Positions 4,144 through 11,224 of a DNA stretch of 64,000 bases are shown here, one piece after another (the stretch's first letter is position 1; each line of letters begins with the position of its first letter). The DNA comes from Nanobdellota archaeon (GTDB lineage: Archaea > Nanobdellota > Nanobdellia > SCGC-AAA011-G17 > PNOQ01). Made by a program: the position numbers and the translations under genes. The stretch is taken from positions 682-64,681 of the forward strand of contig JAHJUI010000005.1 in NCBI GenBank assembly GCA_018829185.1, given 5' to 3'. A model generated the notes under the pieces. The model saw only the letters and a list, made by a program, of their open reading frames with translations, did not search any database and had not been told where the DNA came from.

Positions 4144-5028
4144 TCAAAGTCTGATCCCAATTGTATATTTTGCTATGTTTTTTATTCTTTCAGAAATAGC
4201 TCTTAAATGATATGTTAATAATGGATTATTTTCTGTTGCAAAACTTTGCCATATATCTCTTTTACTTAAATCAATAAACCAATCAATATCGAATTTATAG
4301 AAATTGTTATATGTTTCTTCAAGGAGTTTGCATAGTTTTTTTTGTGACTGGATTAATTCTTTTGGTATTTTGTTTACCTTTTCTAATCCTTGTTTTTCTA
4401 ATGCTCTTAAAAGATATTCATATTGATCTGCTATTTCTTCTAATTGGATTGCTATAAAATAATAATATTTGTATTCTAAAGGCAATGAACTAGTATTAAT
4501 CATTCTTTTAATTGTTTGAGTCCCTGAAATAATTAAAAGGTGTTTTGCTCTTATTTCATCTATTAATTCTTTTTTTCCATTTAAAAATTCTGAATATGTT
4601 TCTGATAAACTTTTTGTGATTAAGAAGATTCTTCTGAAATAATTTTGGAAATCATCTCTTTCAATATTTATTGTTTTGATTATGCATTTATTTTTGTTAA
4701 TTGTTTCTAAACGCCATTCTTCCATTGCTTTTACAGACCAAAGTAACCAAGTTAAAGTATCTGGAGTATCATAGTTTATTCTTATTGTTTTAAATCCTGC
4801 ATCATATAATAATTGTAGAATTCTGTAGATTCCAATTCTATTCGCTTGTTTTATTGTAATTGAGATTGATTTATCTTTTGGTAATGGATTTGGAGAGATT
4901 AAGAGATATTGTTCTACTTCTTCAAAATTAATTGAGTCTCCTTTTTGTAAATTATGGTGTTTTATCCATTTTTTGGGTATTGCTGCCATTAAGCAGTGTT
5001 TTCCCATTTGTACTAGTTTTCTTTCCAT
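4144..5028 (-). CDS. putative transcriptional regulator with an AbrB/SpoVT-like N-terminus and a PhoU-like helical domain
   Basis: N-terminal MGKHCLMAAIPKKWIKHHNLQKGDSINFEEV resembles the swapped-hairpin AbrB/MazE DNA-binding domain. The remainder is helical and resembles archaeal AbrB-PhoU phosphate-uptake-regulator-like proteins. Divergent from the NTase operon. Confidence 0.4.
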   Translation of the reverse strand: MERKLVQMGKHCLMAAIPKKWIKHHNLQKGDSINFEEVEQYLLISPNPLPKDKSISITIKQANRIGIYRILQLLYDAGFKTIRINYDTPDTLTWLLWSVKAMEEWRLETINKNKCIIKTINIERDDFQNYFRRIFLITKSLSETYSEFLNGKKELIDEIRAKHLLIISGTQTIKRMINTSSLPLEYKYYYFIAIQLEEIADQYEYLLRALEKQGLEKVNKIPKELIQSQKKLCKLLEETYNNFYKFDIDWFIDLSKRDIWQSFATENNPLLTYHLRAISERIKNIAKYTIGIRL

Positions 5029-7534: not shown

Positions 7535-7873
7535 ATGATCGGTCCAATAAATGGGTGGTTAGAAAGATTAAATCCCCACGTATATCATCCAGAAGATTTA
7601 GTTGTACTATATAGAGAATATATAAAGGAGGATCCAATTAGTGGGCATTTTGTAAAAAAAAGAATAAAATTACATGGCAGAGTAACAAAAACTATTGAAG
7701 GTTGGCATCTTGAAAAGTCAGACTATGTTGTAATGGCAAGGTATTCAGAAAGACCAGATAATGTACAAATAGGTTCTGGAAATAGAAGCAAAACATATAG
7801 AAAAGCTAATTTCTTTGAAAGAATACATCCTAGCAAGTTTCCTCTGCCATTAGAAGAACGTACTGTTAACTAA
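7535..7873 (+). CDS. hypothetical protein
   Basis: 112-aa ORF, moderately GC-elevated. No recognised family. Confidence 0.4.
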   Translation: MIGPINGWLERLNPHVYHPEDLVVLYREYIKEDPISGHFVKKRIKLHGRVTKTIEGWHLEKSDYVVMARYSERPDNVQIGSGNRSKTYRKANFFERIHPSKFPLPLEERTVN

Positions 7874-7875
7874 AT

Positions 7876-9405
7876 TTATTCTACAGTAACTGGTTTTTCT
7901 AAAAACTCTTTTAAATCTTTTCTTACTTTTTTACCAAATTTTGTTAAATTACCCTTCCCATCTAAGATCTTATATTGATTTAACTGTCCTATTAACCAAT
8001 TAGATGTCTTTTTATTTTTTCCTAATAAAAATTTAGCACAACCAGTATTTCCTAATCTTTCCTGTAATATTTTTCTTCTTTTTGGATAGTACTTAAATAG
8101 TTTATCTTTTAAGATTGATATGTTTTTTATTATTTCTAAAGATCCTATCACCAAGTCTACTCTATCATATTTATCATTTTCCCATCTCCTTACAGAAGAT
8201 TTTATATTATTTTTATCACATACTTTCTTCAAAATTTCAATTTCGCTGCTGTTTGTACTTATGATTATATGACTGTGTGTTTTGGAATTAACACAGCCAT
8301 CCCCTTCCATAACCCCGCAAATAAAATTAAATGCTAACACTTTATCGTTTTCTTTATATATTGTATTCAATAAATGATTTAATAGTCTGTTATAATAAAT
8401 TTGGACAAGTTTTCTATCTTCTCTAATTCTTAATGAGCCATAGGGGTTCCTATTTGGAGCGTATTTTGTTTTTGTTTTAATAATTCTAATTTTTTTATTT
8501 TTTAATATCAATCCTGTTTTTTTAGACCATTTTTTAATTAGTTTATTTTTTAATAGTTCCAAATCTTTTTCTTGGTAATTTGTGTAAGTCAGAGATATAG
8601 CAATATTTGAGTCCAAGATTATTTTTTTATGTTTTTCTTTAAAATAATTGGCTTGCTCAAAAGTAGATGCAGACATTGCCCAATGGTTTCCTTTTTTTGT
8701 ACCATCTGAAAAATAACATCCAAGATAATGTGCAAATTCATTTAAATTTATTTTTTTATTTAGGGTGAATGGGTTATGATTACCATAAAACACTAAAATG
8801 TTGTTTTTATTTATTTCAACAAAGTTAAAATTAATTAATAACTTTTTAAAAAGTTTACTTGATTTTGTTAATTTATTTCCATCAAATTTCTTCCCAATTT
8901 TAAATATTCCTTTTTTTCCTGATAATCCTTTACCTAGCATACACATTAATTCTTTTGTCTTTTTTCTTTTTGTAGAATTTACAACACAAATCTTTTTAAA
9001 ATTATTTTTATTTATTGTTATATTAATTAAAATTATATCTTTATTTTTTAAATTATAAAAATTTGGAATATAAATTCTTCCGTCAGATCCAACTTTAGTA
9101 AAGAAACCATTGATTTTTTCCATTTGAACTTCTACTTTCTGTTTGTAAAGTTTATTTTTAATGTTTAAATCAGTAGGTATAAATATTCCATTTCCCCGGT
9201 AATTTCTTATTTTACTATAAAAAATAATTTTTGAATTTAATCTTATTTTATACTGATCTTTAATTGAAAATTTATTCCTTATTTGTAAAGGTATTCTAAT
9301 AAACCCTGCCCCTTTATTATTTCCCTTTGTTGCTATGGCTTCAAATTTTATTTTGTCCATATTAAATAACAGAATTTGTAGATATTTAAGCTTTTCTATA
9401 GTCAC
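7876..9405 (-). CDS. LAGLIDADG-type (double-motif) homing-endonuclease-like protein with N-terminal extension
   Basis: Two dodecapeptide-like motifs about 140 aa apart: LNEFAHYLGCYFSDGTKKG and LAFNFICGVMEGDGCVN. Extremely Lys/Asn-rich and AT-rich compared with the adjacent glmS. Confidence 0.4.
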   Translation of the reverse strand: MTIEKLKYLQILLFNMDKIKFEAIATKGNNKGAGFIRIPLQIRNKFSIKDQYKIRLNSKIIFYSKIRNYRGNGIFIPTDLNIKNKLYKQKVEVQMEKINGFFTKVGSDGRIYIPNFYNLKNKDIILINITINKNNFKKICVVNSTKRKKTKELMCMLGKGLSGKKGIFKIGKKFDGNKLTKSSKLFKKLLINFNFVEINKNNILVFYGNHNPFTLNKKINLNEFAHYLGCYFSDGTKKGNHWAMSASTFEQANYFKEKHKKIILDSNIAISLTYTNYQEKDLELLKNKLIKKWSKKTGLILKNKKIRIIKTKTKYAPNRNPYGSLRIREDRKLVQIYYNRLLNHLLNTIYKENDKVLAFNFICGVMEGDGCVNSKTHSHIIISTNSSEIEILKKVCDKNNIKSSVRRWENDKYDRVDLVIGSLEIIKNISILKDKLFKYYPKRRKILQERLGNTGCAKFLLGKNKKTSNWLIGQLNQYKILDGKGNLTKFGKKVRKDLKEFLEKPVTVE

Positions 9406-9427
9406 ACAAAATTAAGAATTGTGTGGT

Positions 9428-11224
9428 TTATTCGACTGTGCAGCTTTTCGCGAGGTTGCGAGGCTGATCAACGTCACATTCTTTTTTTACTGCAATATAA
9501 TAAGCAAGTAATTGCATTGGAATAGATGCTAATATTGGTGTTAAGATGTAAGAAGTTTCTGGGATATACATTGTAAAGTCACTTAGTTCTCTTATTTCTT
9601 TATCTCCTATGGTTGCAATAGAAATTATTATTCCCCCGCGAGCTTTAACTTCTTCTATATTGGAAATTACTTTTTTGTAAGTTCTGTTGTCTTTTGTTGC
9701 TATGAAAAATACAGGCATTTCATTGTCTATTAAAGCAATTGGTCCATGTTTCATTTCTGCTGCAGGATAACCTTCTGCGTGAATGTAACTTACTTCTTTT
9801 AGTTTTAATGCTCCTTCTAAAGCTATTGGAAAGTTTATTCCTCTCCCTAAATATAATGCATTTTTCTTTAAGTAATATTTATCAGCACATTCAAGTACTT
9901 CTTTTCCATTGTTTAAAATGGATCTTATCAAATTTGGGATTAGTTTTATGTCACGAATTCTGTTTTCTATTTGTTGTAAGGGAAGAATATTTCTAACCTT
10001 TCCAAAATAAATTGTTAAATAATATAACATTGTTAATTGAGATGTAAATGCTTTTGTTGAAGCAACTCCAATTTCTGGACCTGCATCTAAATGTATTGTG
10101 GAATCTGATTCACGCTCTATAGTTGAGCCATGAACATTAACTAGGGAAACTATTTTTGCTCCTTTTGATTTTGCTTCTCTTAAAGCTGCAAGTGTATCTG
10201 CTGTTTCTCCTGATTGGGATATTGGAATTACTAATGTGTTTTCATCTAATATTGGGTCCCTGTATCTAAACTCTGATGCATATTCTACTTCTGTTGGAAT
10301 CTTTAATAATTCTTCAAACATAAATTCAGCTATTAAAGCAGAATGCCAAGAAGTGCCACAAGCAACTAAAACTATTCTTTTTATGTTTTTTATTTCGTTT
10401 TCAGTAAGATTTAAGTTAGAGAATAAGATTTCATTGTTTAATACTCTTTTTTGATTTATTTTTTCTATTATGTCTGCTTGTTCATGAATTTCTTTTAACA
10501 TAAAATGAGGATAATTATTTTTTTCAGCTTCTTCTATTGACCAAGAGATTTCCATTGGTTTTCTTTTGATTTCTTTATTTGTGTAAATATTTGATATTTT
10601 TATTTTATCATTAATTACTGCTATTTCATCATCTTCTAAAAACAATACTTTATTTGTGTGTTTTAAGAATGCTGGAATGTCAGATGCTATGAAGTAATCA
10701 TTATCTTTTATTCCAATTACTAAAGGTGAACCTTTTCTTGCTGCAAGTATTTGATCAGAATCTTTGTTTATTGCTAAGATTGCAAAGGTTCCATCTAATT
10801 GTTTTATTGTTTCTTTGAAAGCTTGTTCAAAAGGTAAGTTTGATTCTCCAATTAAATGTGCTATTACTTCAGTATCTGTTTCTGATTTGAATTCATGGTT
10901 TTTTAGTTTGTTTTTTAGTTCTTGGTAGTTTTCTATTATTCCATTGTGGACTATTGCTATGTTGTTGTAAACGTGCGGGTGGGCGTTTTCTTTTGTTACT
11001 GAACCATGTGTGCTCCAACGAGTATGTGCTATTGCTATGTTTGATTTTGGTAATTCTTTGTTAAATTTGTGTATTTTTCCAACTTCTTTTATTATTTCAA
11101 AAGAATTATTTTGCTTTATTGCAAAACCATAAGAGTCGTATCCCCGGTATTCTAATTTCTTTAATCCTTCTATAACTATCTCAGATGCATTTTTACTCCC
11201 TTTATAACCAATTATGCCGCACAT
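9428..11224 (-). CDS. glmS: glutamine--fructose-6-phosphate aminotransferase (isomerizing)
   Basis: N-terminal MCGIIGY (Ntn Cys), two SIS domains, C-terminal ...LAKSCTVE. 598 aa. Confidence 0.92.
   Translation of the reverse strand: MCGIIGYKGSKNASEIVIEGLKKLEYRGYDSYGFAIKQNNSFEIIKEVGKIHKFNKELPKSNIAIAHTRWSTHGSVTKENAHPHVYNNIAIVHNGIIENYQELKNKLKNHEFKSETDTEVIAHLIGESNLPFEQAFKETIKQLDGTFAILAINKDSDQILAARKGSPLVIGIKDNDYFIASDIPAFLKHTNKVLFLEDDEIAVINDKIKISNIYTNKEIKRKPMEISWSIEEAEKNNYPHFMLKEIHEQADIIEKINQKRVLNNEILFSNLNLTENEIKNIKRIVLVACGTSWHSALIAEFMFEELLKIPTEVEYASEFRYRDPILDENTLVIPISQSGETADTLAALREAKSKGAKIVSLVNVHGSTIERESDSTIHLDAGPEIGVASTKAFTSQLTMLYYLTIYFGKVRNILPLQQIENRIRDIKLIPNLIRSILNNGKEVLECADKYYLKKNALYLGRGINFPIALEGALKLKEVSYIHAEGYPAAEMKHGPIALIDNEMPVFFIATKDNRTYKKVISNIEEVKARGGIIISIATIGDKEIRELSDFTMYIPETSYILTPILASIPMQLLAYYIAVKKECDVDQPRNLAKSCTVE

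What the first reader, a model, noticed from the sequence alone, without database searches (positions are those of the whole stretch)
7876..9405. Free-standing double-motif LAGLIDADG-like protein of extreme Lys/AT composition beside glmS
Two dodecapeptide-like motifs (…YLGCYFSDGTKKG… and …FICGVMEGDGCVN…) at canonical spacing, embedded in a 509-aa protein. The N-terminal ~200 aa and C-terminal ~60 aa look like added DNA-binding modules. Composition is far more AT/Lys-rich than the neighbouring glmS. This could be a domesticated homing endonuclease, a remnant of a mobile intron or intein, or a novel regulator. Archaeal free-standing LAGLIDADG genes outside rRNA introns are uncommon.
Basis: partly seen in the sequence, partly recalled or inferred. 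Interest (0 to 1): 0.55.

Follow-up and report, generated by a model that had tools for sequence, protein, structure and literature searches.

The report
Homing endonuclease gene docked on glmS
The ORF beside glmS is most likely a selfish "homing" DNA-cutting gene of tiny DPANN archaea that inserts at the very end of the essential glmS gene and supplies a rewritten copy of that end, a lifestyle so far described only for the WHO elements of yeasts.

Summary
There is an intact minus-strand ORF whose true start is probably the ATG at 9360 (494 aa). It has two invariant LAGLIDADG motifs, a confident I-DmoI-like predicted fold, two N-terminal AbrB-like barrels and a C-terminal winged helix.

The context matters more than the fold. 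In 41 of 41 informative homologous loci the gene lies directly downstream of glmS. Three sister-family genes converge on the glmS 3' end, and one distant copy follows top6A. Close relatives with the same flanking genes lack it (empty sites). X-bearing glmS alleles carry a recoded, non-canonical C-terminal tail: canonical KSVTVE occurs in 2/38 of them versus 88/120 in the clade. The window's X ORF ends in the displaced native glmS tail (22/27 nt identical to relatives' native tails). Genomes with 87-90% identical GlmS carry X genes only 49-55% identical, and the similarity breakpoint falls about 40 nt before the glmS stop.

Best reading: a free-standing homing endonuclease element that targets the glmS 3' end and replaces it with a resistant copy. 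It works like yeast WHO elements at FBA1 but arose independently. Cleavage is inferred and not shown. I found no literature on this family. Novelty: new variant of a known kind. Interest 0.72.

The parts
7876..9360 (-).
9115..9357 (-). N-terminal beta-barrel 1 (AbrB/DUF1905-like; contains GFIRIP and GIFIP hairpins); absent in a natural sub-group of about 410-aa homologues
   Evidence: (2d9r, TM 0.72 normalised to target)
8878..9114 (-). N-terminal beta-barrel 2, AbrB/MazE/SpoVT swapped-hairpin signature GF..KVGSDGRIYIP
   Evidence: 2glw E=0.0035, SpoVT, AbrB; MazE_antitoxin in 14/39 members, best E 9e-6
8350..8754 (-). LAGLIDADG domain 1; motif 1 YLGCYFSDG at 8701-8727 with putative catalytic D234
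8101..8349 (-). LAGLIDADG domain 2; motif 2 ICGVMEGDG at 8296-8322 with putative catalytic D369
7903..8100 (-). C-terminal helical/wHTH-like domain (LFKYYPKRRK...); the conserved 3' ~260 nt of X that serves as the right-hand crossover region in cassette exchange
   Evidence: wHTH-PRTase_assc in 5/39 members
7876..7902 (-). Relic of the displaced native glmS tail, fused in frame to the end of X (LEKPVTVE*). It is 22/27 nt identical to native glmS tails of X-less relatives; the last 15 nt match L057 at 14/15
9361..9427 (-). Element spacer with its own archaeal promoter (BRE/TATA aaaagcttaaatat at 9382-9395, about 25 nt before the ATG), a conserved ACCAC...TTTGTGTGAC block and a short inverted repeat (9403-9409 / 9419-9425)
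9428..9460 (-). Element-borne replacement tail of glmS (RNLAKSCTVE*). GC-rich recoding and the non-canonical S-C-T; nucleotide homology with the empty-site allele L055 ends exactly here
9461..11224 (-). Body of the host gene glmS (glutamine-fructose-6-phosphate aminotransferase); vertically inherited part and left homology arm

Best explanation
X is the endonuclease gene of a free-standing homing element whose home site is the 3' end of glmS. The mobile unit is about 1.55 kb. It consists of a replacement copy of the last ~10-17 glmS codons plus a stop, a ~70-nt spacer carrying its own BRE/TATA promoter, and the X ORF. Proposed mechanism: X is a monomeric pseudo-dimeric LAGLIDADG nuclease whose two AbrB-like barrels and wHTH extend its DNA contacts. 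It recognises and cuts glmS alleles with the canonical tail sequence (the codons for ...PRNLAKSVTVE*). The break is repaired from an X-bearing allele, using the glmS body as the left arm and downstream DNA as the right arm. This copies in the element and swaps the recipient's tail for the element's version. That version encodes a functional but altered tail (SCTVE, AVSVE, AVCVE, CVSVE and others) and is presumed resistant to cutting. The original insertion went into the tail codons, so the displaced native tail became the last codons of X. Divergent X cassettes can replace one another in occupied loci, crossing over in the conserved last ~260 nt of X. Copies eventually decay. Shown here: fold, invariant active-site residues, fixed position, empty sites, recoded or non-canonical tails, the relic tail, mosaic structure, truncated copies. 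Inferred: DNA cleavage, its target, the resistance of variant tails, and how two alleles meet in one DPANN cell.
For: (1) Nuclease: confident LAGLIDADG model matching I-DmoI at TM ~0.6 normalised to target, plus intein endonucleases. Both position-8 Asp residues are retained in 147/149 and 149/149 members. (2) Position: glmS lies directly upstream on the same strand in 41 of 44 loci. Two of the other three have under 300 bp of upstream contig. Sister-family genes converge on the glmS stop, 1-67 nt away, in 3/3 loci. One distant copy lies 33 nt after top6A. (3) Presence/absence: L058 and L059 have the same flanking genes as L001 and L006 (Endo_dU, glmS, GNAT, GCD14, TopoVI) but no X. Their glmS stop overlaps the GNAT ATG, and in the filled sites the X stop sits 1-2 nt before that ATG. 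L057 (GlmS 76% identical, shared upstream synteny) and L056 also lack X. L055 (88% nt identity) lacks X. About 6-8 of 44 long-contig GlmS relatives share a contig with X (rough estimate). (4) Tail replacement: window and L055 are ~90% identical up to ...GATCAGCCT, then the last 10 codons are completely recoded. Canonical KSVTVE is found in 2/38 X-bearing loci against 88/120 clade GlmS, Fisher p=2e-14. (5) Relic: 7/113 X proteins match at least 5/9 of NLAKSVTVE at their C-terminus, against 0.035% of control windows. The window's X tail is 22/27 nt identical to native tails, against a control mean of 9.9 and maximum of 17. (6) Horizontal exchange: L011, L014 and L016 have GlmS 87-90% identical but X only 49-55% identical. 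Identity falls from 80-90% to ~45% about 40 nt before the glmS stop and recovers in the last ~260 nt of X. (7) Own promoter in the spacer. (8) Truncated copies at the same site: L043, L034, L032. (9) One copy per genome, and a small family of 195 clusters among 1.84 billion representatives. (10) Experimentally supported precedent: WHO elements at FBA1 (PMC7282813; bioRxiv 10.64898/2026.08.13.744650).
Against: No cleavage data exist, and the target and resistance are inferred. The family is well conserved over its full length, and most copies (about 35 of 41) are intact. X and GlmS distances correlate overall (Mantel r=0.61), so much of the history is vertical and the gene could have a host function. 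Tail type does not track X distance globally (p=0.12). No tandem clusters of elements or extra tail fragments were found, unlike WHO loci. The relic tail is short and survives in only ~6-10% of members. Some apparent truncations lie near contig ends or could be MAG assembly errors. More distant relatives sit at unrelated loci. A route by which donor and recipient alleles meet in DPANN cells is unknown.
Confidence: 0.7

Rival explanations
1. Domesticated LAGLIDADG protein acting as a DNA-binding regulator of glmS / UDP-GlcNAc synthesis genes, similar to WhiA (LAGLIDADG scaffold plus C-terminal HTH). The AbrB barrels and wHTH would bind operators, and the position next to glmS would reflect regulon organisation.
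For: Three kinds of DNA-binding module. Full-length purifying selection and mostly intact copies. Neighbours are sometimes other pathway genes: glmM-like PGM/PMM downstream in L004, and glmU divergent from X' in L060. WhiA appears among the structural matches. Partial co-divergence with GlmS.
Against: WhiA-type domestication is marked by loss of the catalytic residues, yet both Asp residues are almost universally retained here. The gene is missing from close relatives with identical flanks. The constant feature is abutment to the glmS stop codon in either orientation, not to a promoter. A regulator model does not explain the recoded or non-canonical tails, the relic tail on X, or the cassette exchange bounded inside the glmS tail.
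Confidence: 0.12
2. Fossil of one ancient insertion. An endonuclease gene entered the glmS 3' end in an early DPANN ancestor, has since been inherited vertically with many independent losses, and is no longer mobile. It is either inactive or kept for an unknown reason.
For: Overall correlation of X and GlmS distances. One copy per genome. The relic tail has decayed in most members. No element clusters.
Against: A nuclease fossil should lose its active site, but the Asp residues and full-length ORFs are maintained. GlmS 87-90% identical paired with X 49-55% identical, with sharp breakpoints, requires recombination with divergent alleles and cannot be explained by vertical descent. The window retains a well-preserved DNA-level relic (22/27), which suggests a relatively recent event. 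There has been retargeting to top6A and an opposite-orientation sister lineage at the same site.
Confidence: 0.12
3. Degenerate intein or intron endonuclease that escaped from glmS. An intein in GF-6P aminotransferase exists in Methanocaldococcus (recalled from memory, not checked here).
For: The best Foldseek hits include intein endonucleases (TliVMA, PI-SceI). The association is with the same host gene family.
Against: glmS is uninterrupted and has its own stop. X has its own promoter and start. No Hint/intein splicing domain in 39 members, and the N-terminus is AbrB-like. No intron-like RNA was found.
Confidence: 0.03
4. Marker or integration module of a larger island that uses the glmS 3' end as an attachment site, as Tn7 uses attTn7. 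X would be only the targeting component.
For: The glmS 3' end is a classical safe-harbour site for Tn7-like elements (established knowledge). In the window an extra ORF (7535-7873) accompanies X when compared with L057.
Against: In L001 and L006 versus L058 and L059 the only extra DNA is the ~1.55-kb tail + spacer + X unit. No transposase or integrase genes are adjacent. LAGLIDADG proteins are not recombinases.
Confidence: 0.03

Closest known systems
WHO elements at FBA1 in Torulaspora/Lachancea yeasts (Coughlan et al. 2020, PMC7282813; Osborne et al. 2026 preprint, 10.64898/2026.08.13.744650)
   Same: A LAGLIDADG endonuclease gene with an added DNA-binding domain lies beside, not inside, an essential sugar-metabolism gene and is transcribed independently. 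The element includes a replacement 3' end of the host gene. The old 3' end is displaced downstream of the endonuclease gene. The host gene evolves as a chimera whose 3' end is hypervariable, and divergent elements supersede one another. Either orientation relative to the host gene occurs.
   Different: Independent origin: AbrB barrels and a wHTH instead of an intein (Hint) remnant and a zinc finger. The host is archaeal, not a meiotic eukaryote. The replaced segment is only ~10-17 codons, versus ~415 bp. The displaced fragment is fused in frame to the endonuclease ORF. No tandem clusters were seen. Cleavage has not been demonstrated.
I-DmoI and other monomeric double-motif LAGLIDADG homing endonucleases
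   Same: Predicted fold, two LAGLIDADG helices, and an acidic residue at position 8 of each motif. Archaeal.
   Different: I-DmoI is encoded in an rRNA intron and is ~190 aa with no accessory domains. X is free-standing, 494 aa, flanked by AbrB-like barrels and a wHTH, and falls below Pfam's gathering thresholds.
Free-standing homing endonucleases of T-even phages (intronless homing) and mitochondrial HEG insertions that carry a replacement 3' end of the host gene (e.g. Allomyces atp6; recalled from memory, not checked here)
   Same: The endonuclease gene sits next to a conserved gene. It spreads by cleavage of endonuclease-less alleles and co-conversion of flanking sequence. In the mitochondrial cases a foreign copy of the gene's C-terminus travels with the ORF.
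   Different: Different nuclease families (mostly GIY-YIG or HNH) and hosts. None targets glmS or has this domain architecture.
Tn7 / attTn7
   Same: Exploits the highly conserved 3' end of glmS as a recognition site while leaving GlmS functional.
   Different: Tn7 is a transposon (TnsABCD) that inserts downstream of the stop codon. Here a homing nuclease is inferred, and the insertion lies within the last codons, compensated by a replacement tail.
WhiA (DUF199)
   Same: LAGLIDADG scaffold fused to a C-terminal helix-turn-helix domain.
   Different: WhiA has lost the catalytic residues, is universal in Gram-positive bacteria and acts as a transcription factor. X keeps both Asp residues, has a patchy distribution and is site-bound.

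Membership tests
LAGLIDADG homing endonucleases (monomeric, double-motif) | Two LAGLIDADG motifs forming the interface helices of two alpha-beta-beta-alpha-beta-beta-alpha domains | tested here: met
   Invariant motifs. AF2 model with pLDDT 90.8. Foldseek hits to I-DmoI (TM ~0.6 normalised to target, E 4e-4), I-OnuI, PI-SceI and bI3.
LAGLIDADG homing endonucleases (monomeric, double-motif) | Acidic catalytic residue at motif position 8 in both motifs | tested here: met
   D234 and D369 are invariant in the alignment. Asp is present in 147/149 and 149/149 family members.
LAGLIDADG homing endonucleases (monomeric, double-motif) | Score above the curated threshold of a Pfam LAGLIDADG model | tested here: not met
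   LAGLIDADG_3 scores 15.9 bits against a cut-off of 22.5. Only 11/39 members hit it at E<=0.05, and one hits LAGLIDADG_2 at 4.7e-5. This is a divergent lineage not captured by current models.
LAGLIDADG homing endonucleases (monomeric, double-motif) | Site-specific double-strand cleavage of a long target present in element-less alleles | not testable with these tools
   Requires biochemistry. The predicted target is the canonical glmS tail, e.g. L057 ccaaggaatttagctaaaagtgttactgtagagtaa.
Homing genetic element (general) | Fixed home site with presence/absence polymorphism among related genomes | tested here: met
   41/41 informative loci lie at the glmS 3' end. Empty sites with conserved flanks: L055-L059.
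Homing genetic element (general) | Phylogeny of the element is incongruent with that of the host gene | tested here: met
   GlmS distance 0.10-0.26 versus X distance 0.45-0.59 in six pairs, with mosaic breakpoints. Overall correlation is r=0.61, so there is also much vertical descent.
WHO-class homing elements | Endonuclease gene adjacent to, not interrupting, the host gene, with independent transcription | tested here: met
   glmS has its own stop codon. The 65-80-nt spacer has a conserved BRE/TATA. The promoter is predicted, not measured.
WHO-class homing elements | Element carries a replacement 3' end of the host gene that differs from sensitive alleles | tested here: met
   Recoded last 10 codons compared with L055. 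Non-canonical tails in 36/38 X-bearing loci versus 32/120 in the clade. Resistance itself was not tested.
WHO-class homing elements | Displaced old 3' end of the host gene lies downstream of the endonuclease gene | tested here: met
   The relic tail forms the last codons of X: window 22/27 nt and 7/113 proteins at >=5/9. It is much shorter than in WHO elements and has decayed in most members.
WHO-class homing elements | Tandem clusters of successive elements and host-gene fragments | tested here: not met
   No second X or additional tail fragments were found downstream in 38 loci. Only single, sometimes truncated, copies occur.
WHO-class homing elements | Descent from the VDE/HO lineage (Hint-domain remnant plus zinc finger) | tested here: not met
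   No Hint or zinc-finger domains in 39 members; AbrB-like barrels and a wHTH instead. The resemblance is therefore analogous, not homologous.
AbrB/MazE/SpoVT swapped-hairpin DNA-binding domains | Sequence signature and beta-barrel fold of the looped-hinge-helix / swapped-hairpin family | tested here: met
   Profile hits to 2glw (E 0.0035), SpoVT and AbrB. MazE_antitoxin in 14/39 members, best E 9e-6. 2d9r barrel with TM 0.72 normalised to target. All hits for the window protein alone are below curated cut-offs.
WhiA-like domesticated LAGLIDADG regulators | Loss of the catalytic acidic residues | tested here: not met
   Both Asp residues are retained.
Inteins | In-frame insertion within a host protein, flanked by Hint splicing blocks | tested here: not met
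   Separate ORF with its own start and promoter. No Hint domain.

The most novel reading that the evidence does not exclude
DPANN archaea harbour a prokaryotic counterpart of the WHO class of homing elements, the 'third structural class' so far known only from a few yeast genera. It was built independently from an AbrB-LAGLIDADG-wHTH nuclease. It homes into the universally conserved 3' end of glmS, the same site that Tn7 exploits in bacteria. It rewrites the last codons of an essential enzyme each time it moves, and it is in an arms race with that site, producing the unusual diversity of GlmS C-termini in these lineages. Related nucleases at top6A and other genes would make 3'-end replacement homing a general strategy in reduced archaeal genomes and evidence of frequent DNA exchange among them.
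Probability: 0.55. Interest if true: 0.8.

Novelty: new variant of a known kind. Interest (0 to 1): 0.72.

Why it matters
If the model is right, it extends a recently recognised class of homing element, one that replaces rather than interrupts the end of its host gene, from yeasts to archaea through convergent evolution. It shows that the glmS 3' end is a safe-harbour target in archaea as well as in bacteria (attTn7). It explains why the otherwise near-universal GlmS C-terminal tail is hypervariable in some DPANN lineages. It gives sequence-level evidence of homologous DNA exchange between DPANN genomes, whose genetics are essentially unknown. It also offers a new meganuclease scaffold (LAGLIDADG core plus AbrB barrels plus wHTH) with a predictable natural target that could be tested directly in vitro.

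Tried and rejected
- **Single-sequence searches** were nearly blank: nothing in PDB sequences, PADLOC or PHROGs. Only profile and structure methods were informative.
- **Intein origin** is rejected: no Hint domain and glmS is uninterrupted.
- **Foreign codon usage as the cause of the AT-richness** is rejected: GC3 equals that of glmS.
- **Tail type tracking the X lineage globally** is not significant (p=0.12), so I claim only the local cases.
- **WHO-like tandem clusters or extra glmS-tail fragments** downstream of X: none found. The long spacers in L031 and L025 hold no recognisable fragments.
- **DNA-level conservation of the element-borne tail** across loci: synonymous sites vary, so there is no evidence of a conserved DNA operator there.
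- **Metagenome scan with GlmS** returned few close relatives, but it did yield the L055 empty site.
- **Third-tier relatives:** P0196 is on too short a contig, and P0211 follows a radical-SAM gene, so neither is informative.
- **Literature:** no paper combines LAGLIDADG with glmS in archaea, or AbrB with LAGLIDADG.
Full report
**1. The observation**

An intact ORF lies at 7876-9405 on the minus strand (509 aa from a GTG). All homologues start at the query's Met16, and an identical 494-aa protein is on record from a Nanoarchaeota MAG (P0001). The true start is therefore most likely the ATG at 9360. The 15 extra residues are also the only part of the model with pLDDT below 50.

The two dodecapeptide motifs are YLGCYFSDG (8701-8727) and ICGVMEGDG (8296-8322). 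On its own the protein barely registers in libraries:
- Pfam LAGLIDADG_3 at E=0.016, below the cut-off.
- An AbrB hint in NCBIfam.
- Nothing in PDB sequences, PADLOC or PHROGs.

It does, however, belong to a coherent family of more than 120 full-length proteins of 480-500 aa from DPANN metagenome-assembled genomes, at 32-61% identity. In a 39-member alignment both motifs are invariant: Y227, G229, D234, G235 and F361, G364, E367, G368, D369. Among members matched by pattern, the position-8 Asp is kept in 147/149 (motif 1) and 149/149 (motif 2). So the motifs are real and under selection.

**2. Anatomy of the protein**

An AlphaFold2 model built on the alignment is confident (pLDDT 90.8, pTM 0.85). 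Foldseek against PDB returns I-DmoI (TM about 0.6 normalised to the target), the intein endonucleases TliVMA and PI-SceI, I-OnuI, the bI3 maturase and the WhiA N-terminal domain. The viral library returns only intein-containing proteins and ordinary LAGLIDADG endonucleases.

- **N-terminus (~160 residues):** two small beta-barrels. The family profile hits 2glw (the single-chain tandem AbrB-like protein of Pyrococcus), SpoVT and AbrB. Pfam MazE_antitoxin is found in 14 of 39 members (best E 9e-6). An 85-residue barrel, 2d9r, matches structurally.
- **C-terminus (~70 residues):** helical with a hairpin, and hits a wHTH model in 5 of 39 members.
- **Architecture:** AbrB-like x2, LAGLIDADG x2, wHTH. 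I found no paper mentioning AbrB together with LAGLIDADG.

The protein is very Lys-rich (17%), and the gene has the lowest GC of the window's 32 large ORFs (0.236 vs 0.305). GC3 equals that of glmS, so the skew reflects amino-acid content and not foreign codon usage.

**3. The genomic context**

In the window the gene lies 67 nt downstream of glmS on the same strand.
- The same arrangement holds in 41 of 44 homologous loci drawn from metagenomes and from 39 different GTDB species representatives, with one copy per genome. Two of the three exceptions have under 300 bp of upstream contig.
- An exhaustive HMM search of 1.84 billion representatives finds only 195 clusters.
- A sister subfamily of about 510 aa with the same architecture is sometimes fused to large membrane proteins. 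All three members examined are convergent with glmS, with the stop codons 1-67 nt apart.
- The most divergent member (L044) sits 33 nt after top6A instead. A still more distant relative follows a radical-SAM gene.

The constant feature is abutment to the stop codon of glmS in either orientation. That points to site-specific insertion rather than operon logic.

**4. The gene is dispensable and polymorphic**

None of four sampled GlmS relatives has X.
- **L058 and L059** share the flanking genes of X-bearing L001 and L006 on both sides (Endo_dU, glmS, GNAT acetyltransferase, GCD14 methyltransferase, Topo VI). Their glmS stop overlaps the acetyltransferase ATG. In the filled sites the X stop lies 1-2 nt before that same ATG. 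The only extra DNA is therefore about 1.55 kb.
- **L057** (GlmS 76% identical to the window's, shared upstream synteny) has glmS converging on the rpS10 gene with a 2-nt gap.
- **L056** (75% identical) also lacks X.
- **L055** (88% nucleotide identity to the window) lacks X as well.

Matching contig lengths between the GlmS and X hit lists suggests that roughly 6-8 of 44 long-contig GlmS relatives carry X. This is a rough figure.

**5. The end of glmS travels with X**

- **Recoded tail.** Window and L055 are about 90% identical up to ...GATCAGCCT. After that, the last ten codons encode nearly the same peptide with entirely different codons: CGC AAC CTC GCG AAA AGC TGC ACA GTC GAA in the window and AGG AAT TTA AGT AAG TGC GTT TCT GTC GAG in L055.
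- **Non-canonical tails.** Across the clade the canonical GlmS end KSVTVE is found in 88 of 120 homologues but in only 2 of 38 X-bearing loci. Those carry SCTVE, AVSVE, AVCVE, CVSVE, SVTCK and similar (Fisher p=2e-14). All three sister-family loci also have non-canonical last residues.
- **Relic tail.** X itself often ends with a relic of the GlmS tail: window ...LEKPVTVE*, P0059 ...NLAKSVTVL, P0056 ...LAESVTVK, L030 ...AQKSVTVE, L043 ...FLVTVE. Seven of 113 X proteins match at least 5 of 9 positions of NLAKSVTVE at their C-terminus, against 0.035% of internal control windows. At the DNA level the last 27 nt of the window's X ORF match native tails of X-less relatives at 22/27 (control mean 9.9, maximum 17). 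The last 15 nt match L057 at 14/15 but match the window's own current glmS tail at only 10/15.

The simplest history is an insertion into the tail codons of a canonical glmS. The element supplied a new tail and stop, and the old tail was left as the last codons of X.

**6. Horizontal exchange**

X and GlmS distances correlate overall (Mantel r=0.61), so much of the inheritance is vertical. There are also sharp conflicts. L011, L014 and L016 have GlmS 87-90% identical but X only 49-55% identical, and five to six further pairs behave alike.

Sliding-window identity in that trio is 80-90% through glmS until about 40 nt before its stop. It is about 45% through the tail, the spacer and X codons 1 to ~395, and about 85% again over the last ~260 nt of X. 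A cassette made of the glmS tail, the spacer and the nuclease body has therefore been swapped between close relatives. In all six such pairs the tails differ. Globally, tail type does not track X distance (p=0.12), so I do not claim a general rule.

**7. Other features**

- The spacers (mostly 65-80 nt) share a conserved block ending in a canonical BRE/TATA about 25-30 nt before the ATG (window 9382-9395). This implies an independent, probably leaderless transcript. The block is absent downstream of glmS in the empty sites.
- Truncated copies occur at the same site. L043 retains only residues 280-494 with a frameshift. L034 has a premature stop. L032 has lost its last ~20 residues. A natural sub-group lacks barrel 1. 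Some of these could be assembly artefacts.

**8. Mechanism proposed**

X is the nuclease of a free-standing homing element. It is inferred to cut glmS alleles with the canonical 3' end. Repair from an X-bearing allele installs the element and exchanges the tail for a functional, presumably uncuttable version. Divergent elements can supersede one another, crossing over in the conserved 3' part of X.

*Shown here:*
- the fold and the invariant active-site residues
- the fixed site and the empty sites
- tail replacement and the relic tail
- the mosaic structure and decayed copies

*Inferred:*
- cleavage, target and resistance
- the role of the AbrB and wHTH modules
- the route by which two alleles meet in one cell

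**9. Comparison with what is known**

The closest precedent is the WHO elements of Torulaspora and Lachancea. These are LAGLIDADG-plus-zinc-finger endonuclease genes downstream of the essential aldolase gene FBA1. They home by replacing the 3' end of FBA1 with a resistant version, push the old 3' end downstream, and make FBA1 evolve as a chimera. [quoted passage not shown] A 2026 preprint documents an arms race there and still treats the class as confined to yeasts.

The archaeal element works in the same way but is not a member of that family:
- no Hint remnant and no zinc finger
- a much shorter replaced segment
- the relic is fused to the ORF
- no tandem clusters

It is a member of the LAGLIDADG superfamily by fold and active-site residues, although it falls below Pfam thresholds. 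It differs from WhiA by keeping the catalytic residues. It differs from inteins and intron endonucleases by being free-standing. It differs from Tn7, which also exploits the glmS 3' end, by its inferred mechanism and by inserting within the last codons.

**10. Verdict**

It is not a stray or domesticated LAGLIDADG protein. It is the window's copy of a small DPANN-wide family of glmS-docked homing elements with a new domain architecture and a WHO-like 3'-end replacement strategy.

- Best explanation: 0.70.
- Main rivals: a domesticated regulator (0.12) and an immobile fossil (0.12).
- Novelty: new variant of a known kind.
- Interest: 0.72.

The decisive test is simple: in vitro cleavage of canonical versus element-borne glmS tails by wild-type X and by active-site mutants.

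Noticed in passing
window 7535-7873 (+): A 112-aa ORF convergent with X (its stop lies 2 nt from the X stop) has no Pfam or PHROG match. It is absent between rpS10 and glmS in the X-less relative L057, so it is a second lineage-specific insertion at this junction.
   Followed up: partly
window 4144-5028 (-): A 294-aa protein with a weak N-terminal AbrB/MazE-like match (E=0.0012). This is another AbrB-type DNA-binding protein a few kb from X.
   Followed up: no
L004 3212-4189 and 389-1279; L003 13052-13485: Other free-standing LAGLIDADG genes in X-bearing genomes. A 325-aa LAGLIDADG_3 gene is wedged between an LbH acetyltransferase gene (2 nt after its stop) and the glmS start. A LAGLIDADG_2+HTH_3 gene lies near rpS9, and there is another LAGLIDADG_3 gene in L003. 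Docking at gene ends may be common in these genomes.
   Followed up: no
L044 5914-7437: The most divergent X-like gene (29% identity) lies 33 nt downstream of top6A, not glmS, and is followed by what looks like an rRNA gene. This may be a retargeted copy.
   Followed up: partly
L060, L061, L062 (P0152, P0154, P0149): A sister subfamily with the same architecture is convergent with the glmS stop. In some contigs it is annotated as the C-terminal ~480 residues of 1290-1456-aa membrane proteins (P0154, P0164, P0195). These are either real fusions or gene-calling read-through.
   Followed up: partly
glmS-X spacers, e.g. window 9396-9427: A conserved block ACCAC...TTATTATTTGTGTAAC.ATAG lies upstream of the BRE/TATA in many X-bearing loci and is absent from the empty sites. 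In the window it includes a 7-bp inverted repeat (9403-9409 / 9419-9425). It could be an operator for X (autoregulation) or a glmS terminator.
   Followed up: no
L022, L026, L028, L035, L038, L041 (record titles): Several X-bearing contigs are labelled as CPR/Patescibacteria (Saccharibacteria, Nomurabacteria, Yanofskybacteria, Peregrinibacteria) in their genome records, although the gene family is otherwise from DPANN archaea. I did not examine whether this reflects mis-binning or inter-domain transfer.
   Followed up: no
L045 and L055 (same JGI sample Ga0180009): Two contigs closely related to the window (88% nt identity) both break inside glmS. This may reflect strain heterogeneity around the polymorphic 3' end in that community.
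   Followed up: no
L064 4001-5389 (P0211): A third-tier relative (462 aa, lacking barrel 1) lies 59 nt after a radical-SAM/SPASM gene in a ribosomal/translation gene neighbourhood and is not near glmS.
   Followed up: no
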